From contig CAWHBU010000003.1 of NCBI GenBank assembly GCA_963827685.1, positions 480,001 to 544,000 of the forward strand: a stretch of DNA of 64,000 nucleotides. Reading direction: 5' to 3'. The notes beneath the pieces are model-generated. The model saw nothing but the letters and a program-made list of their open reading frames with translations, did no database searches and was not told where the DNA came from. Source of the DNA: an uncultured delta proteobacterium. Lineage in GTDB: Bacteria > Desulfobacterota > BSN033 > UBA1163. The position numbers and the translations under genes were made by a program. Positions 18,397 to 44,970 of this stretch are shown piece after piece; positions within the stretch are counted from its first letter, which is position 1; every line of letters starts with the position of its first letter.

Positions 18397-18449
18397 GGGG
18401 TCAGACCTTGGTCTATTTTCTTAGCGTTTCCCTTTTCCACCAAATTCCG
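18397..18449 (+). repeat. Cassette-boundary repeat A, copy 1
   Basis: GGGGTCAGACCTTGGTCTATTTTCTTAGCGTTTCCCTTTTCCACCAAATTCCG. Confidence 0.9.
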
Positions 18450-18620
18450 GGACGGTGTCAGAGCTACGCCGTCAATAGCTTCTCCACCTCTCCTTGAACG
18501 TCAGTCCGGTCCATTTACCCCCTGGTTTATCTCCACAAGCTTATGATGCAAAGAATTTATGGAAATTCTCCACAGAAGTCAACGATTATTTTTCGCAGTG
18601 CGTAAAATATTGAGGTTTAA

Positions 18621-18736
18621 GTATATCCTCTCAGCGTTCACCTTTTCCACTAAATCCTGCTAACATCGAAGACCTGATCCCTTTTTCACTCCACACATCA
18701 CTAAAATCTTCTGTCAAATTTCAAGGAATGGGACCA
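18621..18736 (+). repeat. Repeat A copy 2 (long form)
   Basis: TCAGCGTTCACCTTTTCCACTAAATCCTGCTAACATCGAAGACCTGATCC...TCTTCTGTCAAATTTCAAGG; two further AAGACCTGATCC at about 18772 and 18792. Confidence 0.9.
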
Positions 18737-18992
18737 TATACTTCTCTTCTGTCGAATAAATGTATGATTGCAAGACCTGATCCTTCTGTTCCAAGACCTG
18801 ATCCTCCCGTTCTCCCTGCTGGTAGTATTTTTAGAATAAATGTAGGAATCTTCTTTGAGATGTTGTATAAAAGTCCAGGGATACTAATAAAAAAACAACT
18901 TGTAACCTATCCAAACATAAGAAAAGCGCTCTGATAAATTAACTGAAATTTTATAGGCCATTTATGAAAAATGTTTTGGTACCCTGGTTTAT

Positions 18993-20147
18993 ATGACGGA
19001 GTTTGGAAATATGCCGTATAGACGATATGATTTGGACTGGTTGAAAGTTGGGGCGGTCTTGCTTCTGGTTCCCTACCATACTGCTATGATTTTTGTTTTA
19101 TGGCCATTCCACATCAAGAATCCAACCTTAAGCCCGGGGCTGACCGTTTTCAACGCATTTCTGCAGGCCTGGCATATGCCGCTGTTCTTTCTCCTTGCCG
19201 GGGCAGCTACCTGGTATGCTCTTGGCTACCGGAGCAGACGCACATACATCAGGGAAAGGCTTTTTCGGCTGGGGATCCCCCCTGGCTTTTGGGATACTGG
19301 CAATTATTCCGCCTCAAGTCTATGTGGAACGACTGTATCAACACCGCTTCAGCGGAACATATTTTCAATTCTACCCCAGCATTTTTACAACGGGCACTTA
19401 CCCGCATGGCAATTTAAGCTGGCATCATCTCTGGTTCATAGCATACCTTATCGTATTTTCCCTGCTGGCTCTTCCCCTTTTTCTGCGCCTGAAGGAGGGG
19501 ACCGGACAAGGAATAATGGTGCGCTGGACCTCTTACCTTGCGCAGGGGCGCCGCATATTTTTGCTCGCGCTCCCCCCCTAATGTTAATCCAAGCACTCTT
19601 AAGGATTCACTGGCCCCAGGGCAAAATGAACCTGACTAACGACTGGGCCAATTTTTTCTTTTATCTAACCTTGTTTGTCTATGGCTTCGTGCTCTGCTCC
19701 AATGATCGCCTCCGGGAGGCGGTTGTTCGTAACCGGTATATAGCACTTCCATTTGGTGTTATATGCTTTTTCTTTTTCCTGGCAACAAAGGACATCACCG
19801 GCAGTGAACCATGGTTGCGCTATAATGCCCGTGATATGGCGATTGTGGCTTTGCATGGTTTTAATACCTGGTGCTGGCTTCTCGTTATAATCGGATTGGG
19901 GATATCTTACCTTAATTTTACGAATAGGTTGCTGGCGTATTCCAACGAAGCCGCTTATCCTTTCTACGTACTGCATCAAACCATAATTTTAGTTCTGGGA
20001 TTCTATGTGGTGAACTTAGACTGGAGTATCTCCGCCAAATTCACCTTCATCATTGCGCTTTCTTTTTTGCTGACACTGCTTATCTATGAATCACTGGTGC
20101 GTAGAATCAAGCTGTTACGGTTTCTGCTCGGCATGAAGGCACGGTAA
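18993..20147 (+). CDS. Acyltransferase 3 (OpgC/MdoC-like) with two compensating poly-C frameshifts
   Basis: RRYDLDWLK, WHMPLFF and YPFYVLHQT in frame; conserved PPQVY...HLWFI.YL middle part is out of frame between C6 (19277-19282) and C7 (19572-19578). Confidence 0.8.
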   Translation: MTEFGNMPYRRYDLDWLKVGAVLLLVPYHTAMIFVLWPFHIKNPTLSPGLTVFNAFLQAWHMPLFFLLAGAATWYALGYRSRRTYIRERLFRLGIPPGFWDTGNYSASSLCGTTVSTPLQRNIFSILPQHFYNGHLPAWQFKLASSLVHSIPYRIFPAGSSPFSAPEGGDRTRNNGALDLLPCAGAPHIFARAPPLMLIQALLRIHWPQGKMNLTNDWANFFFYLTLFVYGFVLCSNDRLREAVVRNRYIALPFGVICFFFFLATKDITGSEPWLRYNARDMAIVALHGFNTWCWLLVIIGLGISYLNFTNRLLAYSNEAAYPFYVLHQTIILVLGFYVVNLDWSISAKFTFIIALSFLLTLLIYESLVRRIKLLRFLLGMKAR

Positions 20148-20314
20148 ATAACCTTTAAGAGATTTCGGCTAATTCTTATTTCCAATTTTTTAAGAGAATG
20201 AAGATTATCTGGAGTAGAATTCCTGGAAGCGGTGACGGAAAGAGTTGAGGGGCTTTACGCGAAAAAGAGTTGGGATCTGATCTCAATTTTTAAAAGTACT
20301 TGTTGATTGTCGAG

Positions 20315-20464
20315 AGCCTGTTGGAAAACTCATTTTTTTCAGGCTGATCAAAAATGCCCAGATACAAGGCACCCGAAATCCTGAGGAATGAGGCGTACTT
20401 GAATGTACGCTGCAATGACGAAGGATGAGGGGAACGCGGCAGATGGGCGTTTTTCAACAGCCTG
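20315..20464. mobile_element. MITE with (A)GCCTGTTG(G)AAAA...TTTTCAACAGCCT ends
   Basis: Imperfect TIRs; flanks rejoin to AAGTACTTGTTGATTGTCGAGAGCTGACCC, similar to 22804-22835. Confidence 0.65.
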
Positions 20465-20545
20465 TTGAGAGCTGACCCTCAGTTCTCATTGCTAATTTTA
20501 GGTTTGACCTCGACCTTTCCAGAAGTTAAATCAGCAAGGGAACCG

Positions 20546-21268
20546 TCATGATAGCTGAATTTGGAAACTTTTCTCAAAGTCATCAAAGGATTTCGTAAGA
20601 ATCTCCTCCATATTGACGAGGAATTGTGTTACCAGCTGGGTGTTGACGAACGCATTCACGAAGGCATCGTTCTTACAAACCAAATTCAGCCGTTTTACTT
20701 GATTCGTGCTTGAGACTCTCAATTCTTCTCCAAATCTCTTAATCATCCCTTTAATCTCTTCGAGGTTCCCATTATGAAGCCAGTACATATTCAGGTAGAC
20801 TCTGGTGGCTACCTCTCTTCCGCCCATAATCGGGATAATACCATAATAATACTTCCAGTATTTTTGCAACACCAGGTTATACCGCAATAAACTTAGGATA
20901 GAAACGTATTTGAGGGCATCCTGCATCGTTGTTGCCCTGACATGCACCAATTTGTCTTCATTCCCTTTGTACACGGCTATGATCTTGTCATAAGAGACGT
21001 ACTGATCGACAATATCCAAGAATGGAAGCATGGGTCTTATCGAATCGCAAATGTCTTCTTCATTTTTGTGCGGGCAAAAGTAGCATTTTTGGAAATCAAT
21101 GGCTTTTCTCTTATCCTCGGGTATTTTTGTAAGGTCCTGCCAATAACTATCCGTGACCTTTTCGATATTCTCTTTCGTAAGTTCTAACCTTGTTGAATCC
21201 GGGAAAAGGAGATAAAGCCCTTCCTTTTCAAAATCGCTCAGCCTCAAATCTAATATTCTATCTTCCAT
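20546..21268 (-). CDS. DUF6901-like protein
   Basis: FQKCYFCP....C, T.Q.AL, RL...C.NDA.VNA.V pattern; GGAGG RBS before MEDRIL. Confidence 0.6.
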   Translation of the reverse strand: MEDRILDLRLSDFEKEGLYLLFPDSTRLELTKENIEKVTDSYWQDLTKIPEDKRKAIDFQKCYFCPHKNEEDICDSIRPMLPFLDIVDQYVSYDKIIAVYKGNEDKLVHVRATTMQDALKYVSILSLLRYNLVLQKYWKYYYGIIPIMGGREVATRVYLNMYWLHNGNLEEIKGMIKRFGEELRVSSTNQVKRLNLVCKNDAFVNAFVNTQLVTQFLVNMEEILTKSFDDFEKSFQIQLS

Positions 21269-21332
21269 GATTCCTCCTTGTCTCTTACCGGAAATAGGGG
21301 AACGCAGGTCCTGAAACATTTCCCCCCAACAA

Positions 21333-21394
21333 GGCTAATTTCGCAGCGTTCACCTTTTCCACCAAATTCCGCTAACATTGAAGACCTGATCCTG
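21333..21394 (+). repeat. Repeat A copy 3
   Basis: GCAGCGTTCACCTTTTCCACCAAATTCCGCTAACATTGAAGACCTGATCCTG; ends 1 bp from the PIN toxin stop codon. Confidence 0.92.
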
Positions 21395-21395
21395 A

Positions 21396-21830
21396 TCAGA
21401 AATCATTATACATTTTTAGAAAATCGGATGCCTTGATGATTTTTGTAGATTTATATTGTTTCAAATCGAACAAATCCTTATCACCACTCACAATATAGTC
21501 TGCAGATCCTGAAATGGCACACGAAATGAACTTGTCATCTTCAGGATCTCTGCATATTCCCTTAACATCTTTAACCACCTCCACAATCTCGAAATATGGG
21601 AGAATCTCATATTTGATAATGGAGTCTGTCTCTTCTTGAGTGAGAGAGAACTTAGGGTATTCGAGAACGGTTACTAACTCACTAAATGTTTCTTTTGAAA
21701 TGACAGGGATAATCTTTCCCTTCTGCCACAGCCCGACGATCTTTGACAGTCCCCCTCTGAAGAGCAAAGCGGATACCAAGACATTCGTATCCAGCACAAC
21801 CCTTTTTACCTGTTTTTCCTTCTTGCCCAC
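21396..21830 (-). CDS. PIN-domain toxin (TIGR00305-like)
   Basis: RVVLDTNVLVSAL, CRDPEDDKFI, IVSGDKDL. Confidence 0.92.
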   Translation of the reverse strand: MGKKEKQVKRVVLDTNVLVSALLFRGGLSKIVGLWQKGKIIPVISKETFSELVTVLEYPKFSLTQEETDSIIKYEILPYFEIVEVVKDVKGICRDPEDDKFISCAISGSADYIVSGDKDLFDLKQYKSTKIIKASDFLKMYNDF

Positions 21831-22045
21831 CGAATGGCCTCACCGACGTCTTTTTCATTAATCCCCAGCCTTCTCATTTTCTCTCTCACACTTTCAATAC
21901 CCGATCCCATAGGCGATATCTTGACCGGCATCAAAAGGATTTTGTCATCCTGGATGCGGACATCAAAATATTGAGCATCAGGAAAGGCGTTGACGACCGC
22001 CTTGGGTAACGTAATTTGATTCTTGGATGTTTTTTTGGCAAGCAT
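21806..22045 (-). CDS. AbrB/MazE-like antitoxin
   Basis: MLAKKTSKNQITLPK; overlaps the PIN gene. Confidence 0.9.
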   Translation of the reverse strand: MLAKKTSKNQITLPKAVVNAFPDAQYFDVRIQDDKILLMPVKISPMGSGIESVREKMRRLGINEKDVGEAIRWARRKNR

Positions 22046-22259
22046 ACTTCCTTACCTCCTTACAATAAGGATACCTTACTTATCTGAAATTTTCAACAAC
22101 TATTTTTCAGGCTCACCAAAGCCTAAAGAGAGGATAAACACCGGCCCGGCAGGCCACCTCCACCCTGTTCGGAAGAATCAGAGGCACTAACTCAAAAAAT
22201 GCGATGTCTCCCTGCTTTTAGAAACGAATAAAGAAGGTGAAATACGACTCCGTCCCCAA

Positions 22260-22655
22260 CTACTGAGATTTAACAATTATTTGGTCGGGGCCACGGACAA
22301 TAATTTCAGGCTTCCCACGGTAGCTTTCTATGACACCGGTGACGCAAATCCTTTTCGCCTTAAAAAATGTCTCTGGAGGATTCTTAAACTTATTCCTGTC
22401 AGATCCCCAAATGAGAACCGTAAAAATTTGGTTTGGGTATGGTTGATCAAGATTTAGAAAAGTAGGTCGTCCTTTGCTTCGAACTGCATAGGTGGTACTC
22501 GCTACCGTCCCACAAACTGTTTTCTCCATCCCAATATATTTGTGGGCATCTATTGGATTGACGTACTCTTGTTGAGCAATAGAGGTAGATGCACAAACTA
22601 AAAACGCAAGAATTAGGAGTATAAAATAGGCGAGGGATTTGATAGACTTCCTCAT
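22260..22655 (-). CDS. Exported OB-fold nucleic-acid-binding protein
   Basis: Signal peptide, VCG.V, PTFLNL..PYPNQ.F, VTG.I..Y.GKPEI. Confidence 0.8.
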   Translation of the reverse strand: MRKSIKSLAYFILLILAFLVCASTSIAQQEYVNPIDAHKYIGMEKTVCGTVASTTYAVRSKGRPTFLNLDQPYPNQIFTVLIWGSDRNKFKNPPETFFKAKRICVTGVIESYRGKPEIIVRGPDQIIVKSQ

Positions 22656-22736
22656 CGGTATATCTCCAAATTCATAGCTCTCCGTGTAGGCTCAATGTGG
22701 GTCTCTCACCCCATCTCGCAAGATCCGCCGTAGTCC

Positions 22737-22770
22737 TTTAGCGGTCACCTTTTCCACCAAATTCCGCCAA
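22737..22770 (+). repeat. Repeat A copy 4
   Basis: TTTAGCGGTCACCTTTTCCACCAAATTCCGCCAA. Confidence 0.85.
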
Positions 22771-22988
22771 GGATTTAATTACCGTGGGGCTTCACCCTTT
22801 GACAAGTAGTTGTTGATTGTTGGGGGACCTGACCCTTTCCCCTATTCGATGATTTCCTTTTTTCCATTGCTCCCTCCTTTCGGCCATTAACGTGCCCTAA
22901 GTAACGTCTGCTAATCCATTTACTCTGACCAGCCCTGTGTTAAGGGCTGACCCCAAGTCTTCCGGAAGGTCGCCTTCTTGATGAATGG

Positions 22989-24305
22989 CTACATTTCCGT
23001 AATCCACTTCTTTCCCTGTTTTTGAACTCCTCCTGCCATCGCTTTGAGAAATGAGGATCGGAGTATGTCACTCATAAGAATCGCCTTCACCGGTGGAAGT
23101 CTCAAGAATCCCCCTACAAAGCCTCGCATGAATTTCTGGGTGATACTTTGAGGATTATCGAATATCTGGTTCTGAAGTGTTCCCCTCTCCAGGCTTTGTA
23201 GAATGACCCGTTCAAACGTGGTTTCCGGATGGAGAACCCGTTTTTCCCGTTTTACCAGAGTGACCGCACCGGTACTGCAGCTTAAGGCACATACGCCGCA
23301 TCCGAGGCAAATAGAGGTATCGATAATAGCATCTTTTTTCTTCTTGGTTTGTGGGTGATCTATCGGAATCATCTGAATCGCATCGATCGGACAGGCCTTC
23401 GCACACTTTCCACAGCCGAGACAGGCGTCAGGATTGTTCTTGGCGAGAAAGTTGGAAGTGACCACCGTATTCGGGTAACCGAATTTGCTGATCCCCGCGA
23501 GAGCATTGCAGCAGTCCTTACAGCAGTGACAGATAAAGGTTACATTTCTTTTTATATTGTCTGCACAGAGCACGAGCTTCATCTCTACGGACTGTGCCAG
23601 GTTTTCCAGCATCTCGGATTTGGAAACCTCTTTTGCCAGTTTGTTCCTGATCAGGTAGTCTGCAGCGAAATTAAAAGAAGAACACTTTTCCAGAGGAATA
23701 TCACACTCCTTTTCACCTATGTGTAATTTTTCATGGCGGCATGAACATATCCCAATTGAAAACTTCTCAGAGGATTCAACAATGCCGGCAGCCTTTTCGT
23801 AATCCAGAACCTCTATATACTCCGACGCGTCAATAGCCTCCCAGTGAGGCAGCGCACGGATAACGGAGACCTTATCGCCTTTCTTCGCGTTCATTGCATA
23901 AAGTTCTCCATTGTTAGCGTTCAGATATTGGTGAAATAGATGCGCCAGTGCTTTGGAATCAACGCCCTCCCCTGTTCGCATCATACTAAACTCAAAAATA
24001 CCGATCATAATCGGCGAAGGCATGTAGTGATAGGCGTCATTGGCCCAAAAGTCGATCACGAGACCTTTTGAGCACAAACTCTCGAGGATCTTTTGAAGTT
24101 CTGAGCTTTCGTATTTTGTCACCTGCGCGATACGATTGAGGTCGGACATGCCGTACGGCATTTTCACAACCACATCCGCTTCCTTTTCGGAATAAAGACT
24201 TTTTAAGAGCTCGTAAAACGCCTCATTCCAGGGAGCCCTGAGAGGTAGATTATCGATCTTCGTTCCCAACCTTCGAAAAATCTCTTTACCGTCTGCATGT
24301 CCCAT
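22989..24305 (-). CDS. 4Fe-4S dicluster domain protein with N-terminal winged helix
   Basis: C.CR, ICHCCKDCC and two CxxCxxCxxxC motifs. Confidence 0.88.
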   Translation of the reverse strand: MGHADGKEIFRRLGTKIDNLPLRAPWNEAFYELLKSLYSEKEADVVVKMPYGMSDLNRIAQVTKYESSELQKILESLCSKGLVIDFWANDAYHYMPSPIMIGIFEFSMMRTGEGVDSKALAHLFHQYLNANNGELYAMNAKKGDKVSVIRALPHWEAIDASEYIEVLDYEKAAGIVESSEKFSIGICSCRHEKLHIGEKECDIPLEKCSSFNFAADYLIRNKLAKEVSKSEMLENLAQSVEMKLVLCADNIKRNVTFICHCCKDCCNALAGISKFGYPNTVVTSNFLAKNNPDACLGCGKCAKACPIDAIQMIPIDHPQTKKKKDAIIDTSICLGCGVCALSCSTGAVTLVKREKRVLHPETTFERVILQSLERGTLQNQIFDNPQSITQKFMRGFVGGFLRLPPVKAILMSDILRSSFLKAMAGGVQKQGKKWITEM

Positions 24306-24352
24306 ATCCAAGCTCCTTTCTCGCCGAGGTTCCTCTCATAATGCGGGCCAAC

Positions 24353-24413
24353 TCTATTTTCTTAGCGTTCACCTTTTCCAGCAAATTCTGCTGACATTTA
24401 AGATCTGAGCCTG
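24353..24413 (+). repeat. Repeat A copy 5
   Basis: TCTATTTTCTTAGCGTTCACCTTTTCCAGCAAATTCTGCTGACATTTAAGATCTGAGCCTG. Confidence 0.9.
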
Positions 24414-24487
24414 TGTTTTGGCACTTTAGATTTCAAAAAGTTATTTCAGGTTTCGAGGCCTAAGACTTTAACCCTTTTTCGAAAAAA

Positions 24488-25264
24488 TCAAACGGGGCTT
24501 TTCCATCTTTCGTAATTCCAATCAGACTTCATTTCATCTTGGTGGGACTTACAATACTCAATACCGGCATCGGTAAGAAAAATCTGCCCATTTTCAAGAT
24601 TAATATCTACCAACCCATGAAGCATCGCCAGTTTTGCACCTGAAGCATAGATTGGATAGTTAGGATTGAGAGATCCTACTGCAAAAGTCCATATTCTAGG
24701 GTAATATTGTTGCTGATGATTCCAAAGAGTTGATAAGACCTTTAATGCATCCTGTGTGATCTCCAGTTCCTTTTTGTTTTCTGGTTCCTTTTCCTCCATC
24801 GCCGTTATGATACCTTCCTCCCTCATGAAATCCTCTGTATTCACCTTTATTTTCTGCATGCGGGGAATCCCCAGATGCGTTTCAACTACCCTTTTCTCTT
24901 TATCAATGATTGGTTCCGGTTTTTGACCCACTCCCCAGAATACAAGATTTGTCTGTTGAGTAACTTGGTTCTTAATACTGATTGAAAGCATATCAGACCT
25001 CAAATTGATTATCTGCTCTTTCATTTCCGATTTGAGAGAATCGACTTCCTTTTTCAGTTTGATACCAAAAATGTCAATCTCCTGAAAGAGTGGCAGAAGA
25101 AGCAAACAAATCCAGATTACAAAGATAAAAACATCCACTGAAGTAGTTGATCCCAGTTTAAAAGCAGGGAAACCGAAAATTGCATAGATTAAACCAAGCG
25201 TAACTAATATTCCCCACCAAATATTTTTGAATTTAATATTTTTAAACTTATCCGATAATTTCAT
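24488..25264 (-). CDS. Hypothetical 2-TM protein; RBS displaced by IS630
   Basis: True start MKLSDKF; the longer ORF-track N-terminus is IS-derived. Confidence 0.65.
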   Translation of the reverse strand: MKLSDKFKNIKFKNIWWGILVTLGLIYAIFGFPAFKLGSTTSVDVFIFVIWICLLLLPLFQEIDIFGIKLKKEVDSLKSEMKEQIINLRSDMLSISIKNQVTQQTNLVFWGVGQKPEPIIDKEKRVVETHLGIPRMQKIKVNTEDFMREEGIITAMEEKEPENKKELEITQDALKVLSTLWNHQQQYYPRIWTFAVGSLNPNYPIYASGAKLAMLHGLVDINLENGQIFLTDAGIEYCKSHQDEMKSDWNYERWKSPV

Positions 25265-25267
25265 ATC

Positions 25268-26376: not shown

Positions 26377-26471
26377 ATATCCTCTTAGATTAGAATAAGT
26401 ATACAAAAACACGGCGTCACGCCTTGAAATGTGAATTAATTTAATTCACAAGTCTCAAAATGACCTAATAG

Positions 26472-26599
26472 AGGTCAACTCCATTTTCTTGCCGTTCACC
26501 TTTCCCACCAAATTCTACTAACATTGAAGACCTGATCCTGCATTCGCTCCACAGTCCAATAAAAACTTCTGTCAAATTTCAAGACCAGGCACCAGTTAC
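26472..26599 (+). repeat. Repeat A copy 6 (long form)
   Basis: CATTTTCTTGCCGTTCACCTTTCCCACCAAATTCTACTAACATTGAAGACCTGATCCTG...CTGTCAAATTTCAAGACCAGGCACC. Confidence 0.92.
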
Positions 26600-26677
26600 T
26601 TCCAGTTACTTTGAATGGCTATTTGTTTCAATGTCAATGGCGACAAACTCATTTGATTTTGTCATACTTTATGCGTT

Positions 26678-36626: not shown

Positions 36627-36743
36627 GATATGCTCACTTCAAAAATCTGCCCCTAAATATTCGCATCTTCTTCTTAAACCCACCTGTCGGCAATTTGTCC
36701 AATGACACACCCTGACCCCACTTGCTCGACGAGGGTGGAATGT

Positions 36744-37514: not shown

Positions 37515-37566
37515 GGAATCCTCTCCAGAAAGAGGGCCGTAGGTTCTAAAACATTTTCACCTGACG

Positions 37567-37689
37567 AGGTCTACTTCTTACCGGTTACCTTTTTCACCAA
37601 ATTCCGCCAACATTGAAGACTTGATCCTGTATTCGCTCCACACTTCAACAAAATCTTCTGTCAAGTTTCAAGATCAGGAACCAGTTATT
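37567..37689 (+). repeat. Repeat A copy 10 (long form)
   Basis: AGGTCTACTTCTTACCGGTTACCTTTTTCACCAAATTCCGCCAACATTGAAGACTTGATCCTG...CTGTCAAGTTTCAAGATCAGGAACC. Confidence 0.9.
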
Positions 37690-37887
37690 CATGCCAATTA
37701 ATTTCTGATGTCAAGTTGTTTTAGAAGCGACGTCCCCATCTACTTTTGAAGAAAAAATACCTTTTACAACTTGAACGCTGTTTTCAGTGGGTTGTTTGAC
37801 TCTTCCTGAGCCAGAGATCGTCGATTGTGGAGCCTTTTAGGAGGTCGCAACTGGCCCAGCCATTCCTTACAAGGCAAGGGATCCACC

Positions 37888-39246
37888 TCATTGATCTTCT
37901 GAACCAGCCTGACCCAGTTTTTTCTGCCCGCGGCCAGGCAGTTTTAGTCGCCAAACGCCTAAATAAAGTAGGCCAACGAAGACAAGTCCCATAAATATGA
38001 TCGCAATTCTTCCCCAAAGCCCAAGATGCTTATTGCCGTCAAACGTTGTTATCAACGTGTTGACAGTGGATATAACCGAGAGGAGGGCAAATACAAGTCC
38101 TCCTACGGCAAACCTAAACGTCCTTGTTGCGCTTGCGGAATCCTCAATCCATTTGAACATTTCTTCCAATGCTCCTAATTGGTTTTTGATCTGATCGACT
38201 AACGTATTCATCTCTTCTGCTTTCCAGAATTCCTGCAATTGCTTCATGTACGCTGCTTTCAAGCGCACGTTTATTGGACTGGATTCGACGATAAAAGAGA
38301 TGACGAACATGCGGAAAAGCTTTAGTTGGCCGTAGCCCTCCGCTGCAACCATGGACGCACCGTTCATTCCACTTTGCAGCTTGTGCAGGTCGCAGCGGAG
38401 ATGCTTTTGAATCCAGAGGAAGCCAACAAAGGTCGAAAACCCAATTCCAAGTACCGGCAGATATGAACGATCCAGGGATTTGATTGAGGCATCTTTGTAG
38501 CGGATGCTGATCTCCTCAGACCCCTGGTTTTCGACGAAATCGATGAAATATACATCAAAAAGGATGTCTTCGTAGATTGAGAACATTTTGGGATCTTCAC
38601 GGACGGACTGCTCCGCGCGACGAAAGCTGTCCAATCGACTTCCCGAATGAGACGGAACAAGTTCTCTGTTGTAAGCGATAGCTTGTTTGCATTTCTCGAT
38701 GTCATCAGTGGAACAAAGAAGCGGGCTCAACATCTCGGTGGGAATGCAAGCGAAGATAACATCGGCAATCTCGTTGAAGATAAAGGTCAGCTCCACATAG
38801 TGCTCCTCGACGATTTCTTCCAGTTGAGCCAGACTGAAGAATCTTTTGCCGTCGAAGGAAATTTGCACCATGACCAAGATGACGCCGGTTGGACAAATCC
38901 AAATCAAGTGATCAAATTTGTATCCGTGAGGTGGAAGGGGCAATCGTTTTTCCTGAATGTACGTTGATAAGGCAAATACATCGAACAACTCGGTGTACGT
39001 GATCGTCAGTGGCTTGTCGAGCGGGAAAAACGTCTCTGGATGATAATCCATTTGAGCGATTTGAAAATGAGTTGCACTCTGAGAAATTCGCTGGGAGATC
39101 TGGTCTTTGACTTTGTTCCAGCTACTGGGGTCCCGTGTAGGATATAAGTAGAATGGAATGCTAATGTGGAACCCTGCCATGAAAACAAGACTGTGTTTGC
39201 CTGCGTTTTTATCGTTTGGAAACATCTTCTCATCCGTGAACAACAT
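37888..39246 (-). CDS. Hypothetical protein with two C-terminal TM helices (CorA-like topology)
   Basis: Long soluble domain, coiled coil, two TM segments; GGAGG RBS. Confidence 0.6.
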   Translation of the reverse strand: MLFTDEKMFPNDKNAGKHSLVFMAGFHISIPFYLYPTRDPSSWNKVKDQISQRISQSATHFQIAQMDYHPETFFPLDKPLTITYTELFDVFALSTYIQEKRLPLPPHGYKFDHLIWICPTGVILVMVQISFDGKRFFSLAQLEEIVEEHYVELTFIFNEIADVIFACIPTEMLSPLLCSTDDIEKCKQAIAYNRELVPSHSGSRLDSFRRAEQSVREDPKMFSIYEDILFDVYFIDFVENQGSEEISIRYKDASIKSLDRSYLPVLGIGFSTFVGFLWIQKHLRCDLHKLQSGMNGASMVAAEGYGQLKLFRMFVISFIVESSPINVRLKAAYMKQLQEFWKAEEMNTLVDQIKNQLGALEEMFKWIEDSASATRTFRFAVGGLVFALLSVISTVNTLITTFDGNKHLGLWGRIAIIFMGLVFVGLLYLGVWRLKLPGRGQKKLGQAGSEDQ

Positions 39247-39267
39247 TTTGAACCTCCATCGGCGTGT

Positions 39268-40107
39268 TCACTCAGATTGAGCGAGCACGAATCTTGCGAG
39301 AGCAGTAATCAGACGCGAATCCGCCTCGACACGTTTGTTGATATCGGCTAAACCTGGAATCTCAGTACAGGCAGTCCGTGGGATGCCTGAGTGGAAGAGA
39401 AGGTCCTCAAAAGAGCCATCGCGATAGTCAAAAATGATTCCTTCGCGTACAAATCCACCCTCCAGCGGTCCGTCGGGGAAGAAGTCAAAGAACTTAGCTG
39501 CTTCATCTCGCAGGGCGTGAGAAAACAAACCAGGTGTCGGAGAAGTCTCAAACGTGTATAGATAGCATTTTAAGTACTCCATATCTTCGTGCAGTGAAAG
39601 GAAGCCATGACTTGCCAATGATGTGAGCAAGGGCAAGTGCCTTAGCAAGATCTGCCCTTCCCGAGAAGGCGGTGGTTCGTTGGGTCCGCGATGTACAGTT
39701 GGATTGCTATGAAAGAATCCCCGGTTTGGGTCTTCTCCCCAGATATTTGTGCGTATGTGATTACGGAAACCAGTCGGGTTTACCAAAGGCAGGAAAGACA
39801 GGGTCAAGGAATGAAACGATTCTAAGCTGTTCAAGAAACGGGTAATTCCCCAGCATCCAGCTGGTTCGTCGCCGTGAAAGCCTGCGGCAAAGAGAACACG
39901 TGGCCCTCCATTTAGAGTTATCGGTGTGAGGAGCAAAAGCGGGTAGCCCTCGATATCTCCTAAGTTTTGAATTCGCAAACCGCGCCTTGCCGCCAATTCG
40001 CGCAGCCGTTGCATCAGTTTATCGTAATCAAAGGCGTCGCACTTCTCCGTGTCGATCCAAGTACTGCTTTTCGATCTATCTCCAGAAAACCTTTTACCCA
40101 TTTGCAT
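39268..40107 (-). CDS. M14 zinc carboxypeptidase / succinylglutamate desuccinylase-like
   Basis: AGFHGDEPAG, NPTG...R, DPNR, SLHED, TE.P. Confidence 0.85.
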   Translation of the reverse strand: MQMGKRFSGDRSKSSTWIDTEKCDAFDYDKLMQRLRELAARRGLRIQNLGDIEGYPLLLLTPITLNGGPRVLFAAGFHGDEPAGCWGITRFLNSLESFHSLTLSFLPLVNPTGFRNHIRTNIWGEDPNRGFFHSNPTVHRGPNEPPPSREGQILLRHLPLLTSLASHGFLSLHEDMEYLKCYLYTFETSPTPGLFSHALRDEAAKFFDFFPDGPLEGGFVREGIIFDYRDGSFEDLLFHSGIPRTACTEIPGLADINKRVEADSRLITALARFVLAQSE

Positions 40108-40462
40108 TGTGAGTGCATCCTAAAATATATGCTATGTATGATAAGGATTCGCTTTTTAGTGAGTTGAATATACGAAAAACAAAGTTGTATGTCAAGAAAA
40201 AGGACCACAAGATATGCGGTCCTTTCCGCATTTGTCAATCAAATAATCCTATTGGTTTATCATATCGAATACAGCAATCGACTTACCGATTAGGGGTTGA
40301 AACATTGCATTATAGGGTGAAAATGAAAAATCAAGACTTCAGGAAGAAGTCACCATCACACTTGACAATGTCTGTATAGTCAAATTCTGACTTTCACACA
40401 TGATTAATAAGAAGCGAGGATATCCTTTGAGGTCACTCATACATCATCAAATTCACATCGCA

Positions 40463-40496
40463 GGGGTCAGGCCTATTTTCTTAGCGTTCACCTTTT
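40463..40496 (+). repeat. Repeat A copy 11 (left arm and loop)
   Basis: GGGGTCAGGCCTATTTTCTTAGCGTTCACCTTTT. Confidence 0.9.
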
Positions 40497-40514
40497 TCTT
40501 GGATCAAGCTAGAA

Positions 40515-40856
40515 TCAGGGGGATTCCTTACCTTTCCTTGTCTGGCGTGCTTTTTCCATCAACCAGTTGACGAGCGGTTTTAATTTCTCCGGCATGGCTT
40601 CCTCGCTCACTCTCACCGCGTACTGCCGGCCACTTTCTTCCAGCCTTAATTCGTACTGAAAGCGGTCAGGCTGGGGAGACCGCGACACGATCTTCCCGGG
40701 CAAATTAAAGAAGTCAGCTTCCTCAACCAGCTGGCGAAGCTTCAGAGCTTCATCTGGCGCAAGGTCTTTTTTATCAACAGCCGTTTTCATCGTTATGCCG
40801 GCAAAGCCACCGCTTCGTTCAATGGAGATCCGCAAGGTCTTTTCCTCCCCTGGCAT
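40515..40856 (-). CDS. Emfourin (protealysin inhibitor), copy 1
   Basis: RSGGFAG and PDRFQY motifs; coupled downstream of an M4 protease. Confidence 0.9.
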   Translation of the reverse strand: MPGEEKTLRISIERSGGFAGITMKTAVDKKDLAPDEALKLRQLVEEADFFNLPGKIVSRSPQPDRFQYELRLEESGRQYAVRVSEEAMPEKLKPLVNWLMEKARQTRKGKESP

Positions 40857-41899
40857 TAAGTTACCCCAACCGCTTTCCAGGCTTTCTGCACCGCTTTCAT
40901 CTCTTTGCTTCCATTACCGTAGAGATCCTTGGCAACACTGATGGTGGTAGACGCAGCACCTGCAAAATTCGACTTACTCCGCAGCCGATCCCGAAGAGCA
41001 ATGTACCAGATCTTTCCTGCCTTCGTCCAGGCATTACCACCGATCTCCATGGCCGCAAGATAGAAGGCATGGTTAGGAATGTCAGAGTTGATATGGACGC
41101 CGCCGTTATCCGAAGTGGTTTGCACGTAACCCTTCATCGTAGCCGGCTGCGGGTCCTTCCCAAGGACGGGATCATCATAGGCTGTCCCGGGCGCCTTCAT
41201 GGAGCGGAGGGCCTTTCCGTGAATTTTGGGCATTAGAAGACCCGCGCCGATCAGCCAGTCGGCTTTGGCCGCTGTTTGTTTGAGGGTCCGTTGTTTCACC
41301 AGAGAGCCGAAGACGTCCGACATGGACTCATTCAATGCCCCTGGCTGGTTGGAATAAGCAAGATTGGCTTCGTACTGGGTCACGCCGTGAGTCAACTCGT
41401 GGCCGATGACATCGATACATTTGGTGAAGCGAGCAAAGATCTCACCGTCTCCATCGCCATACACCATCTCACTGCCGTCCCAGAAGGCGTTGTCATAATT
41501 GACATCGTAATGGACATAGGAGACGATAGACATCCCCCGGTTGTCTATGGAGTTGCGCTGATAGATATCGTAGTAGAGGTCATAGGTGGCGCCTGCTCCA
41601 TCATAGGCTTCGTTGACCGCAACATCCTTTCTGGGGGGATCACCTTCTTTGCGAACCAGAGTGCCCGCAGGAGGCTGCCCGTCTTTGTGCTTGCAATCAT
41701 AGACAGTACGGGATTTATGGCCGACAGGCGCCGCTGACGGAAGGATGCCCAATGCATGGCGTTGCCCTCTGATAAAGCCAGCCGAAGTCAGGTTCCGGAG
41801 AGCCCAATCCCTCTGATGAGGCTTGCCGCGCTTAGCAATCTCTTCCAGCATGTACGGGGGGATGATAGAACGGATTCCTACATATCTGATCGGTCTCAT
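40856..41899 (-). CDS. Protealysin-like M4 metalloprotease, copy 1
   Basis: IIPPY propeptide, NAFW, HELTH, NESMSD; GVHINSD instead of GVHINSG. Confidence 0.93.
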   Translation of the reverse strand: MRPIRYVGIRSIIPPYMLEEIAKRGKPHQRDWALRNLTSAGFIRGQRHALGILPSAAPVGHKSRTVYDCKHKDGQPPAGTLVRKEGDPPRKDVAVNEAYDGAGATYDLYYDIYQRNSIDNRGMSIVSYVHYDVNYDNAFWDGSEMVYGDGDGEIFARFTKCIDVIGHELTHGVTQYEANLAYSNQPGALNESMSDVFGSLVKQRTLKQTAAKADWLIGAGLLMPKIHGKALRSMKAPGTAYDDPVLGKDPQPATMKGYVQTTSDNGGVHINSDIPNHAFYLAAMEIGGNAWTKAGKIWYIALRDRLRSKSNFAGAASTTISVAKDLYGNGSKEMKAVQKAWKAVGVT

Positions 41900-42008
41900 G
41901 ATCTTCTCCTTTTTGAAAGGAAATAAAGGTAATTACAGAATATCAAAAAGTATTACGTGTTAGAACTATTTTATTTTCGCTTCTGCTCAGTGCAGAGCCG
42001 TCGGTAGG

Positions 42009-42044
42009 AGGTTAAGTCTATTTTCTTATCGTTCACCTTTGCCA
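42009..42044 (+). repeat. Repeat A copy 12, interrupted by IS630
   Basis: GGTTAAGTCTATTTTCTTATCGTTCACCTTTGCCA|CTAG. Confidence 0.85.
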
Positions 42045-43168
42045 CTAGTATCTACTTGACATAATAAGCGTAATATGCTAACTTTCCTGTATTATGAGCA
42101 GGAAAGCAAAAGAAATCACGTTGGAGCCCGAGCAACGGGCTGAGTTGGATCGATTGGTTCGAACCCATACCACTCCCAAGCGTATGGCGGAGAGGGCGCA
42201 AATTATTCTCTGGGGTGCTGAAGGGCAGAGTAACACGGAGATTGCCAAAAGGCTGAGGACTCGTGTTGCACGCGTTTGCAAATGGCGTAGCCGTTTCGTC
42301 AGAGAAGGGTTGGCAGGTTTGCTTGATGAACCGCGCCCCGGGCAGCCACGTAAGTACACCGCAGAGACCGAACACACAATTCTGCGCAAGATCGATGAAG
42401 CTCCTCCGAAGGGATATGCCCAGTGGAACGGAAGGCTTCTGGGGGAGAGGACGAGCATCCCGGATTATGAAGTGTGGGCGGTGTTGCGCAAGTATGGGAT
42501 TAGCCTTCAGAGACGGCGCAGTTGGTGTATTTCGACGGACCCTGAATTTGCACGGAAGTCCGCTGATATTGTTGGGCTTTACCTGGATCCTCCTGAGAAC
42601 GCCATGGTGGTATGCATGGATGAGAAGCCAGCCATTCAGGCGTTGGAACGGGCTCAGGGGTGGCTTAAACTGCCCAATGGCAAGGCGCTGACGGGAGCCA
42701 ACCATGAGTATAGACGGCATGGAACGAGTACCCTCTTTGCAGCCTTGAATGTGGCCACGGGACAAGTGAAGGCGGGCCATTACGGCCGCCGTCGTCGCCG
42801 GGAGTTTCTGGATTTTATGAACGAGATCGTTGCCGAACATCCGGACGAGGAAATCCATGTGATTATGGACAATTTGAAGACTCATCGACCGAAGAGGGAT
42901 CATTGGATTAAACGCCATCCGAAGGTTCATTTTCATTTTACGCCCACACATGCTTCCTGGCTGAACCAGATCGAAATCTGGTTCAGTCTTCTGAGCCGCT
43001 ATGCCTTGAGGGGCGCCTCCTTTACAAGCGTCCGACAGTTGCGCCAGGCGATCGATGAGTTTATTTCCGTCCATAACGAAAAGGCAGCCCCGTTTGAATG
43101 GACCAAGCGTTATGTCAAATCAGTTCACCCTAAAAATAAGTACGCTTATTTATATAATTAGATACTAG
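42045..43168 (+). mobile_element. IS630-family element with single transposase (42094-43161)
   Basis: DEKP.IQA, Y.RHGT, IMDN..TH, TPTHASWLNQIE; TIR CTAGTATCTA...AATAAGCGTA at both ends. Confidence 0.93.
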
Positions 43169-43347
43169 ATTACATAGAAAATAACGTGTCCGTGTCACGT
43201 GTCCGTAAACCGTAATATTTTTTTGAGGATGACGAAGCCGTCATGAAACATTCCGTAAACATCAAAGTCTTGATCCCGAGATTTACTCTTATCTGCTCGA
43301 TGGGCGAGTGGTGCTCGATGGCACCTTTTTTCTGGATTAAGTCAGGA

Positions 43348-43689
43348 TCAGGGGGATTCCTTACCTTTCCTTGTCTGGCGGGCCTTTTCCATCAACCAGT
43401 TGACGAGCGGTTTTAATTTCTCCGGCATGGCTTCCTCGCTCACTCTCACCGCGTACTGCCGGCCACTTTCTTCCAGCCTTAATTCGTACTGAAAGCGGTC
43501 AGGCTGGGGAGACCGCGACACGATCTTACCGGGTAAATTAAAGAAGTCAGCTTCCTCAACCATCTGGCGAAGCTTCAGAGCTTCATCTGGCGCAAGGTCT
43601 TTTTTATCAACAGCCGTTTTCATCGTTATGCCGGCAAAGCCACCGCTTCGTTCAATGGAGATCCGCAAGGTCTTTTCCTCCCCTGGCAT
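43348..43689 (-). CDS. Emfourin, copy 2
   Basis: Differs from copy 1 by one residue (L/M). Confidence 0.9.
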   Translation of the reverse strand: MPGEEKTLRISIERSGGFAGITMKTAVDKKDLAPDEALKLRQMVEEADFFNLPGKIVSRSPQPDRFQYELRLEESGRQYAVRVSEEAMPEKLKPLVNWLMEKARQTRKGKESP

Positions 43690-44732
43690 TAAGTTACCCC
43701 AACCGCTTTCCAGGCTTTCTGCACCGCTTTCATCTCTTTGCTTCCATTACCGTAGAGATCCTTGGCAACACTGATGGTGGTAGATGCAGCGCTTGCAAAA
43801 TTCGACTTGCTCCGCAGCCGATCCCGAAGAGCAATATACCAGATCTTTCCTGCCTTCGTCCATGCATTACCACCGATCTCCATGGCCGCAAGATAGAAAG
43901 CATGGTTAGGAATACCCGAGTTGATGTGGACGCCTCCGTTATCCGAAGTGGTTTTCACGTAGTCCTTCATGGTCGCCGGCTGTGGGTCCTTTCCAAGGAC
44001 GGGATCATCGTAGGCTGTTCCCGGCGCCTTCATAGAGCGGAGGGCCTTCCCGTGAATCTTCGGCATTAAAAGTCCCGCACCGATCAGCCAGTCGGCTTTG
44101 GCCGCCGTCTGTTTCAAGGTCCGTTGTTTCACAAGGGAGCCGAAAACGTCCGACATGGACTCGTTCAATGCCCCTGGCTGGTTGGAATAAGCAAGATTCG
44201 CCTCGTACTGGGTCACGCCGTGAGTCAGCTCATGGCCGATGACGTCGATGCATTTGGTGAAGCGAGCGAAGATCTCACCATCTCCGTCACCATACACCAT
44301 CTCACTGCCATCCCAGAAGGCGTTGTCATAGTTGACATCGTAATGGACATAGGAGACGATAGACATCCCCCTGTTGTCTATGGAGTTGCGCTCATAGATA
44401 TCATAGTAGAGATCATAGGTGGCGCCTGCTCCGTCATAGGCTTCATTGACTGCAACATCCTTTCTGGCGGGATCACCTTCTTTGCGGACCAGAGTGCCCG
44501 TAGGAGGTTGCCCGTCTTTGTGTTTGCAATTATAGACAGTACGGGATTTATGGCCAACAGGCGCCGCTGACGGAAGGATTCCCAATGCAAAGCGCTGCCC
44601 TCTGATAAAGCCAGCCGAAGTCAGGTTCCGGAGAGCCCAATCCCTCTGATGAGGCTTGCCGCGCTTAGCAATCTCTTCCAGCATGTACGGGGGGATGATA
44701 GAACGGATTCCTACATATCTGATCGGTCTCAT
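43689..44732 (-). CDS. Protealysin-like M4 metalloprotease, copy 2
   Basis: Same length as copy 1 from MRPIRY; canonical GGVHINSGIPN. Confidence 0.93.
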   Translation of the reverse strand: MRPIRYVGIRSIIPPYMLEEIAKRGKPHQRDWALRNLTSAGFIRGQRFALGILPSAAPVGHKSRTVYNCKHKDGQPPTGTLVRKEGDPARKDVAVNEAYDGAGATYDLYYDIYERNSIDNRGMSIVSYVHYDVNYDNAFWDGSEMVYGDGDGEIFARFTKCIDVIGHELTHGVTQYEANLAYSNQPGALNESMSDVFGSLVKQRTLKQTAAKADWLIGAGLLMPKIHGKALRSMKAPGTAYDDPVLGKDPQPATMKDYVKTTSDNGGVHINSGIPNHAFYLAAMEIGGNAWTKAGKIWYIALRDRLRSKSNFASAASTTISVAKDLYGNGSKEMKAVQKAWKAVGVT

Positions 44733-44843
44733 AATCTCCTCCTTTTTGAAAGGAAATAAGGGGTAATTACAGGATATCAAAAAGTATTACGTGTTAGAAC
44801 TATTTTATTTCCGCCTGTGCTCAGCGGCGAACCGTCACTAGGT

Positions 44844-44970
44844 GGGATCAAGTCTATTTTCTTAGCATTCCCCTTTTCCACCAAATTCCGCTAAGATCGA
44901 AAACTTTATCCTGGATTCTGTCCACACCTCGATAGAATCTTCTGTCAAGTTTCAAGACCAGGCACCACCT
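44844..44970 (+). repeat. Repeat A copy 13 (long form)
   Basis: GGGATCAAGTCTATTTTCTTAGCATTCCCCTTTTCCACCAAATTCCGCTAAG...CTGTCAAGTTTCAAGACCAGGCACC. Confidence 0.92.

What the first reader, a model, noticed from the sequence alone, without database searches (positions are those of the whole stretch)
18397..44970. Integron-like cassette array delimited by 13 co-oriented non-attC hairpin repeats
Seen: one repeat family (core TCTATTTTCTTAGCGTTCACCTTTTCCACCAAATTCCGCTAACATTGAAGACCTGATCC; long form extends ~55 bp to TCAAGACCAGGCACC) occurs at about 18411, 18621, 21333, 22737, 24353, 26480, 28287, 35732, 36590, 37567, 40463, 42010 and 44844. All copies are on the same strand and intergenic, and I found none outside this 27 kb. 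Between them lie unrelated modules: acyltransferase+DUF6901, PIN/AbrB+OB-fold, Fe-S protein, TM protein, TM0106 nuclease, SIR2-HerA-KTSC+RloC-like+GIY-YIG, SnoaL, CPBP, M14+TM, and protealysin-emfourin twice. Nearly all cargo genes are on the minus strand. Many start 30-110 bp after a repeat (18369, 21268, 22655, 24305, 37514, 41899, 44732) and stop just before the next (PIN stop 1 bp from copy 3; emfourin stop ~19 bp from copy 11). Established: this gene content and polarity are typical of integron arrays. Inference: a gene-capture/stacking system using a different recombination site; no integrase or recombinase is in the window.
Basis: partly seen in the sequence, partly recalled or inferred. 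Interest (0 to 1): 0.92.

Follow-up and report, generated by a model that had tools for sequence, protein, structure and literature searches.

The report
Integrase-less gene-cassette array, non-attC repeats
A 27-kb stretch of this sediment bacterium's chromosome is a stack of unrelated accessory genes, each preceded by the same short conserved DNA element, which looks like an integron array but lacks both the integron's folded recombination sites and its integrase, so it may be a different way of stockpiling genes.

Summary
Thirteen co-oriented copies of one repeat family lie at 18411-44979. Two profile searches of the 5.2-Mb genome found only weak fragments elsewhere. The element has three parts: a universal ~50-bp core 'A' just 5' of each cargo gene, a middle 'M', and an optional ~55-nt 'B' after the preceding stop codon. 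It is not an attC. It has no stable or conserved hairpin, no paired end boxes and no conserved GTT, whereas textbook attC sites beside intI in a same-genus relative are found and fold well. No integrase adjoins the array. The genome holds only a truncated intI, 258 kb away. The family occurs in 21 of 55 genomes of one order. It also occurs in at least 80 metagenome contigs and is always co-oriented there, with a median spacing of 1041 bp and 352 clusters among 402 ORFs. Orthologous cassettes have unrelated upstream neighbours in 34 of 37 pairs. The mechanism is open. I favour (0.45) a cassette-borne expression/junction linker shuffled by general recombination. A dedicated site-specific system is the main rival (0.3).

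The parts
18411..18455 (-). repeat c1, A part only (profile positions 89-133)
18608..18746 (-). repeat c2, full B-M-A (profile 8-146)
21328..21425 (-). repeat c3, partial B + M + A (profile 46-138)
22723..22773 (-). repeat c4, A only
24338..24466 (-). repeat c5, divergent B + M + A
26466..26603 (-). repeat c6, full B-M-A
28279..28408 (-). repeat c7, full B-M-A
35721..35774 (-). repeat c8, A only, preceded by a ~27-nt insert after an M remnant
36576..36729 (-). repeat c9, variant B' + 6-nt insert + A; the same B' follows the CPBP gene in a relative
37563..37697 (-). repeat c10, full B-M-A
40462..40497 (-). repeat c11, 3' part of A only
42007..42045 (-). repeat c12, 3' part of A, cut by an IS630-type element
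44840..44979 (-). repeat c13, full B-M-A; first copy in the direction of the genes
18046..18369 (-). cargo: 107-aa protein of unknown function, also a cassette in relatives
18993..21319 (.). cargo: acyltransferase_3 (18993-20147, +) and DUF6901-like protein (20546-21319, -)
21396..22655 (-). cargo: PIN toxin, MazE/AbrB-like antitoxin, 131-aa protein with no family
22989..24311 (-). cargo: 4Fe-4S protein; the same cassette sits beside different neighbours in four other genomes
24488..26378 (.). cargo: 305-aa protein with no family (24488-25405, -), overlapped at its 5' end by a 1.1-kb IS (25267-26378; ORF 25464-26363, +)
26678..28177 (-). cargo: RNase_H_2 / Cas4-like nuclease
28377..35495 (.). 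cargo module of 7.4 kb: 85-aa ORF, KTSC, HerA, SIR2 (SIR2-HerA defence pair), SMC-type ATPase (weak LmuB-like), weak GIY-YIG (+ strand)
35887..36270 (-). cargo: SnoaL-like protein
36744..37514 (-). cargo: CPBP (Rce1-like) protease; six different downstream neighbours in six genomes
37888..40107 (-). cargo: 452-aa protein with no family and AstE/AspA-like hydrolase
40515..41899 (-). cargo: protealysin (M4) + emfourin, copy 1
42094..43161 (+). IS630-type DDE_3 transposase (element has 5 copies in the genome)
43348..44780 (-). cargo: protealysin + emfourin, copy 2 (tandem duplicate, period 2833-2836)

Best explanation
This is a sedentary chromosomal array of accessory-gene cassettes with no integrase. 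Each cassette carries a conserved 5' module on its own strand: the ~50-bp A core, whose consensus reads GGAATTTGGTGGAAAAGGTGAACGCTAAGAAAATAGAC. About four in ten copies also have an M and B part right after the preceding stop codon. I read the module as a protein-recognised double-stranded expression/junction linker, with A acting as a cassette-borne promoter or 5' leader. Because it is the only sequence shared by all cassettes, it is also where cassettes get duplicated, deleted, re-ordered and swapped between strains by general (homology-dependent) recombination, with crossovers concentrated in the conserved core. Shown: the anatomy, the confinement to arrays, the strict co-orientation, the absence of attC features, the absence of an adjacent recombinase, the very diverse cargo, and the shuffled neighbours. 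Inferred: promoter or leader function, and homologous rather than site-specific exchange.
For: The element lies only in arrays and always on the gene strand: 13 of 13 copies in G000, 0 of 41 genome loci and 0 of 80 metagenome contigs with mixed orientation. A is the universal part: 131 A-only, 104 contiguous B+A and 7 split copies. A ends a median of 87 nt (quartiles 41 and 164, n = 88) before the next same-strand start codon, and B begins a median of 40 nt after the previous stop (n = 58). The element is asymmetric and unstructured, as a promoter or leader would be: RNAalifold gives 0 pairs on 20 copies, and ssDNA fold z-scores run from -2.84 to +1.77. No recombinase is associated with the arrays. 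There is none in the window apart from IS transposases. Array flanks in relatives are housekeeping genes. Only 1 of 80 metagenome contigs holds a tyrosine recombinase. G000 has no serine recombinase. Homology breakpoints of shared cassettes fall at several places: B start, M start, A start, profile position 104 and A end. Linkage to the downstream gene starts inside the most conserved stretch, where homologous crossovers would be expected. There the mismatch rate of orthologous pairs is 0.12 against 0.09 for random pairs at positions 96-115, and 0.17 against 0.24 at positions 116-130. A tandem duplicate of the protealysin-emfourin cassette is bounded by repeats.
Against: A regulon promoter would be expected elsewhere in the genome too, for instance before its sigma factor or regulator gene. 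No copy lies outside the array. A short motif derived from A is not found upstream of the three ECF-sized sigma genes. The simple sigma-70 scan did not list the A cores of copies c8-c13, the only part of the array scanned (35500-45200). About 36-50 bp of 80-95% identity is a poor substrate for RecA. Cargo is very diverse, with 352 clusters among 402 ORFs and a spacing of about 1 kb. Cassettes 99% identical occur in unrelated contexts. Both points suggest a more efficient capture process than homology alone. Half-sites and a recurrent insertion point between M and A would also fit a fixed recombination site. No RNA data could be obtained.
Confidence: 0.45

Rival explanations
1. A dedicated cassette-capture system that works like an integron with different parts. 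The A core (with M and B as accessory arms) would be a double-stranded recombination site for a recombinase encoded elsewhere in the genome. That enzyme would excise cassettes as circles and re-insert them at other A sites.
For: The element is confined to arrays and strictly co-oriented. Spacing is integron-like at a median of 1041 bp, and cargo is very diverse. In 34 of 37 orthologous cassette pairs the upstream neighbour is unrelated, including a pair at 99% identity. Cassette order is permuted between genomes. A-only and B-only half-sites exist, and there is a recurrent indel point between M and A. The A core stays conserved with no sign of concerted evolution: orthologous variants such as c9 are kept across genomes. 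Linkage switches inside the core.
Against: No candidate enzyme was found next to any array in three well-assembled genomes or on 79 of 80 metagenome contigs. G000 has no serine recombinase and only a truncated IntI. The A core has no dyad symmetry of the kind that tyrosine and serine recombinase core sites show. Breakpoints are heterogeneous. No joints were seen in contigs of the run that holds most of the stretch (X1).
Confidence: 0.3
2. The repeats are atypical or decayed attC sites, and the array is a CALIN left behind when its integron integrase was lost or moved. Full-length IntI of the lineage could still act on it in trans.
For: The lineage has true integrons: 12 of 41 related genomes hold an IntI above the TIGR02249 cut-off. 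G000 and one relative keep a truncated intI. M contains a GTTAGC word that resembles the 3' core site of the canonical attC sites found beside intI in a same-genus genome. Contigs that carry intI often end exactly at attI.
Against: There is no hairpin, whereas six attC candidates chosen for a paired-end hairpin gave z-scores of -1.5 to -6.0. In 42 copies the three columns under GTT hold G in 25 of 41, T in 33 of 38 and T in 27 of 41. The most conserved part lies downstream of that word, where integron cassettes share nothing. My crude attC finder hits none of the conserved elements and finds only background in the arrays of relatives (32 places in 340 kb). The repeat profile has no hit in 20 intI loci. 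Repeat and IntI presence are not associated in the family. In one 6.5-Mb relative with long contigs, IntI and the arrays lie on different contigs.
Confidence: 0.07
3. The array is a fossil of repeated tandem integration of small integrative elements at one attachment site. Each repeat would then be an att remnant, possibly derived from the 3' end of a target gene.
For: Direct repeats flank each module. The long form reads through in one frame as a 28-codon stretch ending in a stop in some copies. One metagenome cassette encodes a tyrosine recombinase.
Against: None of the 12 modules in the window encodes an integrase. The window has no tRNA or tmRNA. The reading frame is intact in only 9 of 42 copies and shows no codon periodicity. 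No full-length gene ends in the repeat at either end of the array. Cassettes are about 1 kb, too small for autonomous elements.
Confidence: 0.08
4. Ordinary dispersed repeat (REP or MITE) or an assembly artefact.
For: MAG assemblies break at repeats. Other dispersed repeats do exist in the window.
Against: There are no copies elsewhere in the genome and no inverted copies in any of 121 loci with copies. The same architecture appears in 21 of 55 genomes and on 80 independent metagenome contigs.
Confidence: 0.02

Closest known systems
Sedentary chromosomal integron arrays / CALIN (clusters of attC sites lacking an integrase)
   Same: A polar stack of mostly single-gene, roughly 1-kb cassettes of unrelated function, including toxin-antitoxin and phage-defence genes. 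A lineage-specific repeat sits at every junction. Cargo varies between relatives. The array sits in the chromosome between core genes.
   Different: The repeat does not fold, has no paired end boxes and no conserved AAC/GTT. Its conserved part lies 5' of each gene rather than 3'. No intI or attI adjoins the array. Canonical integrons with textbook attC sites coexist in the same genus at other loci.
Hotspots where alternative gene cassettes between conserved sequences are exchanged by homologous recombination (for example the minimal mobile elements of Neisseria; recalled, not checked here)
   Same: Accessory genes are swapped at a fixed chromosomal locus with no dedicated recombinase, using conserved flanking sequence as homology.
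   Different: There the homology is the flanking core genes and each site holds one cassette. Here a dedicated ~50-135-bp linker is repeated between every cassette of a long array.
Xer-dependent modules (pdif modules, integrative elements that use Xer; recalled)
   Same: Small modules without their own recombinase, bounded by short conserved sites and moved by host enzymes acting in trans.
   Different: Those sites are about 28 bp with dyad symmetry and alternate in orientation or sit at the terminus. Here the sites are asymmetric and all co-oriented, and the array is not at a GC-skew switch.
Re-used ('mobile') promoters: highly similar upstream regions in front of unrelated genes (PMC3575422; search listing and abstract only)
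   Same: One conserved upstream sequence precedes many unrelated genes.
   Different: Those are described as scattered within and between genomes. This family is confined to one polar array per locus.

Membership tests
Integron | Integron integrase gene (intI) next to the array, with attI | tested here: not met
   There is no PF00589 or TIGR02249 match in the window. The nearest is a 141-aa C-terminal IntI fragment (191 bits, cut-off 265) at C3:782913-783335, 258 kb away. Array flanks in relatives are housekeeping genes.
Integron | attC: an imperfect palindrome that folds as single-stranded DNA, with paired outer and inner boxes (recalled definition) | tested here: not met
   ssDNA fold z-scores of 5 long copies on both strands run from -2.84 to +1.77. 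RNAalifold gives 0 pairs on 20 copies. Five candidate helices were tested on 42 copies, and only one 7-bp helix exceeds shuffles (0.825 against 0.772). Six attC candidates beside intI in relatives, picked by a finder that required a paired-end hairpin, fold with z-scores of -1.5 to -6.0.
Integron | Conserved AAC ... GTT triplets at the ends of the site (recalled motifs RYYYAAC / GTTRRRY) | tested here: not met
   The columns under the only GTT candidate hold G in 25 of 41, T in 33 of 38 and T in 27 of 41 copies. The crude finder reports 2 places in the window. Neither is the conserved element, although one overlaps the edge of c9.
Integron | Co-oriented cassettes of about 1 kb with variable cargo | tested here: met
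   Median spacing is 1041 bp. ORFs lie 134 on the repeat's strand against 23 opposite. There are 352 clusters among 402 ORFs. Neighbours differ in 34 of 37 ortholog pairs.
Integron | Recognition by IntegronFinder's attC covariance model | not testable with these tools
   Neither the program nor its model is available here. Rfam gave no match in the window.
CALIN | Two or more attC sites without an integrase | tested here: not met
   The repeats fail the attC features above. In the arrays of relatives, attC-like candidates occur only at background level (32 places in 340,485 bp, none of the canonical type).
REP / MITE dispersed repeats | Copies scattered over the genome in both orientations | tested here: not met
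   all 13 significant copies lie in one 27-kb stretch on one strand; 0 of 121 loci have mixed orientation.
Xer / dif-type modules | A ~28-bp dyad-symmetric site, at the terminus or alternating in orientation | tested here: inconclusive
   The array is not at a GC-skew switch and all sites are co-oriented. The core shows no dyad symmetry. The organism's own dif site was not identified.
Tandem integrative elements (att repeats) | An integrase in at least some modules, with the repeat derived from a target gene or tRNA | tested here: not met
   None of the 12 modules holds an integrase. There is no tRNA. A recombinase was seen in 1 of 80 metagenome contigs. The search for a source gene could not be run.
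Serine-resolvase res-type sites | A resolvase gene in the genome | tested here: not met
   PF00239 has no match in G000 at E <= 1e-5. The genome is 94.5% complete.
Promoter / 5' leader module | Transcription starts at or just after the element | not testable with these tools
   No RNA run holds the stretch. Position relative to start codons is compatible. The sigma-70 consensus scan did not list the A cores of c8-c13, the only part scanned. The ECF-like reading of two conserved blocks is a recalled resemblance only.

The most novel reading that the evidence does not exclude
A second kind of gene-cassette platform, found in one order of Thermodesulfobacteriota-type sediment bacteria. Very diverse ~1-kb cassettes would be captured, stacked and re-ordered at an unstructured, asymmetric ~50-bp double-stranded site (A, with optional M and B arms) by an unidentified enzyme acting in trans, independently of IntI and attC.
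Probability: 0.3. Interest if true: 0.9.

Novelty: new variant of a known kind. Interest (0 to 1): 0.72.

Why it matters
Integrons are the only well-understood system that stockpiles single-gene cassettes, and detection tools define them by attC folding and IntI. This array has the same genomic logic: it is polar, modular, very diverse and carries defence and toxin-antitoxin genes. Yet it fails the three molecular criteria I could test, so such tools would probably not report it. If a dedicated enzyme acts here, it is a new recombination system and a new source of cassette-borne genes. If general recombination at a cassette-borne expression linker is enough, that shows integron-like gene stockpiles can arise without special machinery. 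The family is abundant in freshwater-sediment and wetland metagenomes, so either answer can be tested on existing samples.

Tried and rejected
Coding reading. On the gene strand the long form reads as a 28-codon frame ending in a stop. The frame is intact in only 9 of 42 copies, indels are not multiples of three, and entropy by codon position is 0.73/0.84/0.82, so I rejected it.

Structured RNA or DNA. Rfam gave nothing. RNA folds of the B-M part of 10 copies gave z-scores from -2.55 to +1.39, with 2 of 10 below -1.9.

B as a stand-in for a terminator. Terminator-like hairpins lie before A in 0 of 104 B+A copies, 2 of 131 A-only copies and 0 of 7 split copies, so there is no systematic substitution.

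ECF-type promoter. The motif GGAATTT-N15-17-GCTAA has 6 genome hits, 4 of them in the array, and none lies before the three ECF-sized sigma genes. The result is inconclusive.

Mobile carriers. The long form has no match in plasmids or phages. The 20-nt core word has no match in viral contigs.

Raw-read evidence. Only Logan contigs were available and no RNA holder was listed. Most of the 15 listed joints in four runs fall inside repeats, for example 21391>28347 and 35766>28345 'goes back'. Their shorter sides are only 22-36 nt, so they can be explained by cross-mapping between repeat copies. I do not count them for or against excision.

Crossover mapping. SNPs in the c9/c5 comparison with a relative gave a mosaic pattern with no clean switch.

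Taxon from the protein atlas: uninformative.

Four literature searches found no description of non-attC cassette arrays, and a fifth, on re-used promoters, found none confined to arrays. I saw only listings and abstracts, and supplements are closed.

Full report
OBSERVATION. The repeat finder lists 13 direct copies of one family on the + strand between 18411 and 44890, and longer forms of up to 141 nt for five of them. A profile of the 13 copies, run over the whole genome (5,228,624 bp in 14 contigs; the window is C3:480001-544000), finds exactly these 13 with E <= 3.5e-13 and one 27-nt hit at E = 0.6. A broader profile made from 20 long copies of several genomes again finds the 13, plus two weak hits at E 0.5 and 0.027. 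So the copies are real, far beyond chance (0 of 100 shuffles), co-oriented and confined to 27 kb. This includes a SIR2-HerA defence pair (376 and 531 bits) and a tandem duplicate of a protealysin-emfourin module (period 2833-2836). Two insertion sequences sit inside the array. One is an IS630-type element (5 genome copies) that cuts copy 12. The other is a 1.1-kb IS (13 genome copies at 99-100% identity) near copy 6.

ANATOMY. On the strand of the genes (window minus strand) the full element is about 135 nt. It has three parts:
- B, about 55 nt, begins a median of 40 nt after the preceding stop codon (n = 58).
- M, about 25 nt, is the least conserved part.
- A, about 50 nt, has the consensus GGAATTTGGTGGAAAAGGTGAACGCTAAGAAAATAGAC followed by TTGACC. 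It ends a median of 87 nt (quartiles 41 and 164, n = 88) before the next same-strand start codon.
A is the universal part. Over all loci collected, 131 copies are A-only, 104 are contiguous B+A and 7 are split by an insert. In the window, c1, c4, c8, c11 and c12 are A-only. The lowest column entropies lie in A, in the blocks GAATT, AAAG, GA, GCT and AAA. In relatives, B can be replaced by other short modules. An insert of 80-200 nt with short GACACG-type repeats recurs between M and A, and it is present or absent at an orthologous junction of two close relatives.

NOT AN attC, NOT A HAIRPIN. Five long copies folded as single-stranded DNA on either strand give z-scores from -2.84 to +1.77. RNAalifold on 20 copies predicts no pair at all. 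RNA folds of B-M give z-scores from -2.55 to +1.39. I tested five candidate helices on 42 near-full copies. Only one 7-bp helix is paired more often than in shuffles (0.825 against 0.772), and that control ignores relatedness. Its left arm and the adjacent GTT vary: G in 25 of 41, T in 33 of 38 and T in 27 of 41 copies. As a positive control I wrote a crude finder that requires end boxes complementary at 6 of 7 positions or more, plus a paired-end hairpin. Directly upstream of a full-length intI in a same-genus genome it finds three textbook sites (GCCTAAC ... GTTAGGC type). Six such candidates, selected by that hairpin requirement, fold with z-scores of -1.5 to -6.0. In the window it finds two unrelated places, and in 340 kb of array loci from relatives it finds only background, 32 places with none canonical.

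NO ADJACENT RECOMBINASE. The window has no tyrosine recombinase. The genome's only IntI-like sequence is a 141-aa C-terminal fragment 258 kb away, at 191 bits against a cut-off of 265. G000 has no serine recombinase. True integrons do exist in the lineage: 12 of 41 related genomes have an IntI above the cut-off. However, the repeat profile has no hit in 20 intI loci. In a 6.5-Mb relative with long contigs, IntI and the repeat arrays lie on different contigs. Within the family, presence of the repeat and presence of IntI are not associated. In relatives the arrays lie between housekeeping genes. On one side are a cytidylyltransferase, CarD, IspD, IspF, GltX and CysS, or else lon, dnaK and ftsY. 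On the other side are an aminotransferase and EF-G. In G000 these flanks are dispersed on the same contig, so the locus has been rearranged. The array is not at a GC-skew switch.

DISTRIBUTION AND DYNAMICS. The long form matches in 15 of 41 relatives, all within one family: 14 of 24 there and 0 of 16 in other families. It matches in 21 of 55 genomes of the order, in 7 of 21 genera. An exact 20-nt core word occurs in 30 stretches of a collection covering 185,579 species. Twenty of these are clear family members, and their record titles read Thermodesulfobacteriota, Deltaproteobacteria, Syntrophaceae or Syntrophorhabdus MAGs. The other ten match only over some 20-50 nt or not at all, and I take them as chance. 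Plasmids, phages and viral contigs have none. The 80 contigs returned (309 kb) hold 190 copies and none has mixed orientation. The median spacing is 1041 bp (quartiles 714 and 1453). ORFs lie 134 on the repeat's strand against 23 opposite, and 402 ORFs fall into 352 clusters. In genome loci, 120 copies in 41 loci are likewise never mixed. Shared cassettes sit in different company. The 4Fe-4S cassette has at least four different upstream neighbours in five genomes. The CPBP cassette has six different downstream neighbours in six genomes. The order of several shared cassettes is swapped between genomes. I also examined 37 pairs of sites on different contigs whose downstream genes are orthologous and which both have an upstream ORF. 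In 34 of them the upstream genes are unrelated. The other 3 are 100% identical duplicates. One pair with unrelated upstream genes is 99% identical in the cassette gene.

WHERE EXCHANGE HAPPENS. Orthologous cassettes with different upstream neighbours are no more alike than random copies in the 5' part of A (mismatch 0.12 against 0.09 at profile positions 96-115). They are more alike in the 3' part (0.17 against 0.24 at 116-130, and 0.34 against 0.44 at 131-140). So linkage to the downstream gene begins inside the conserved core. BLAST breakpoints of seven shared-cassette pairs fall at the start of B, the start of M, the start of A, position 104 and the end of A. This fits crossovers within conserved blocks. 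It does not show one fixed crossover point, and it cannot exclude one inside the core, because the core is too conserved to resolve.

MECHANISM. Two readings survive.
(a) An expression/junction linker shuffled by general recombination, which I favour at 0.45. In its favour are the asymmetry of the element, its lack of structure, its position before start codons, the absence of any associated recombinase and the heterogeneous breakpoints.
(b) A dedicated site-specific system with an unknown enzyme acting in trans, at 0.3. In its favour are the strict confinement to polar arrays, the integron-like size and diversity of the cargo, very recent re-contexting of cassettes, half-sites, and conservation of the core without concerted evolution.
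Against (a): no copy of A lies elsewhere in the genome, as a regulon promoter would, and 36-50 bp is short for RecA. Against (b): there is no enzyme and no dyad symmetry. The attC/CALIN reading (0.07), att remnants of integrative elements (0.08) and a dispersed repeat or artefact (0.02) are disfavoured by the tests above. The two best-conserved blocks of A, GGAAT and CGCT 17 nt apart, resemble an ECF-type promoter. That comparison comes from recall. The motif is not found before the ECF-sized sigma genes of this genome.

COMPARISON AND NOVELTY. The array works like a sedentary integron array or CALIN in architecture and content. It fails the defining molecular features I could test, so I do not file it as an integron. 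Four literature searches found no description of such arrays, and a fifth, on re-used promoters, found none confined to arrays (listings and abstracts only, supplements closed). I rate it a new variant of a known kind. It would be categorically new if reading (b) holds.

LIMITS. I could not run IntegronFinder.

Noticed in passing
window 25267-26378: A 1.1-kb insertion sequence with 13 copies at 99-100% identity across the genome. Its 299-aa ORF (25464-26363, +) has no Pfam match, so the transposase may belong to a poorly described family. It overlaps the 5' end of the neighbouring 305-aa cargo ORF.
   Followed up: partly
window 20315-20432: A ~118-nt element between the acyltransferase and the DUF6901-like gene. 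It has two further genome copies at 88% identity, plus two shorter partial matches, and very high summed contig depth in four metagenomes (up to 3365 in its bin), with loose ends at its borders. This points to a widespread small repeat or MITE.
   Followed up: partly
window 10842-10978, 13311-13364, 17705-17841: A second local-only repeat family: 3 copies, all on the + strand, none elsewhere in the genome, lying just after + strand genes beside the array. It shares two 9-10-nt words with B and M in the opposite orientation. The relation to the main family is unexplained.
   Followed up: partly
genome C3:782913-783335 (outside the window): A truncated integron integrase: a 141-aa C-terminal half that includes the IntI-specific insertion. 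A similar fragment is kept in a same-genus relative.
   Followed up: partly
L029, L031, L032 (intI loci of relatives): Full-length IntI proteins of this lineage are about 430 aa, with an N-terminal extension of some 100 aa. In one of the two scanned (L032), a second stretch matches the SAM-like domain family. Contigs that carry them often end exactly at the attI crossover (...AATTGTT).
   Followed up: partly
L014, L017, L018, L039, L043, L045 (arrays of relatives): A recurrent 80-200-nt insert with short GACACG-type tandem motifs sits between M and A. It is present or absent at an orthologous junction of two close relatives.
   Followed up: partly
window 13359-13413 and 13639-13693: A ~52-nt repeat with 16 hits on six contigs in both orientations, an ordinary dispersed REP-like family. 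It is a useful contrast to the array-confined repeat.
   Followed up: yes
window 28661-31958: The SIR2-HerA anti-phage pair with a KTSC-domain gene, carried as one 7.4-kb module together with an SMC-type ATPase. Defence cargo of this kind is also reported for chromosomal integrons (abstract of 10.1101/2024.07.02.601686, listing only).
   Followed up: partly
L010 11834-12075; L036 2033-2130; L037 16654-16793: Strong ~100-140-nt palindromic elements (TACAAAC ... GTTTGTA ends, about -20 to -34 kcal/mol) recur in several genomes. They are probably a separate hairpin repeat family rather than attC sites.
   Followed up: no
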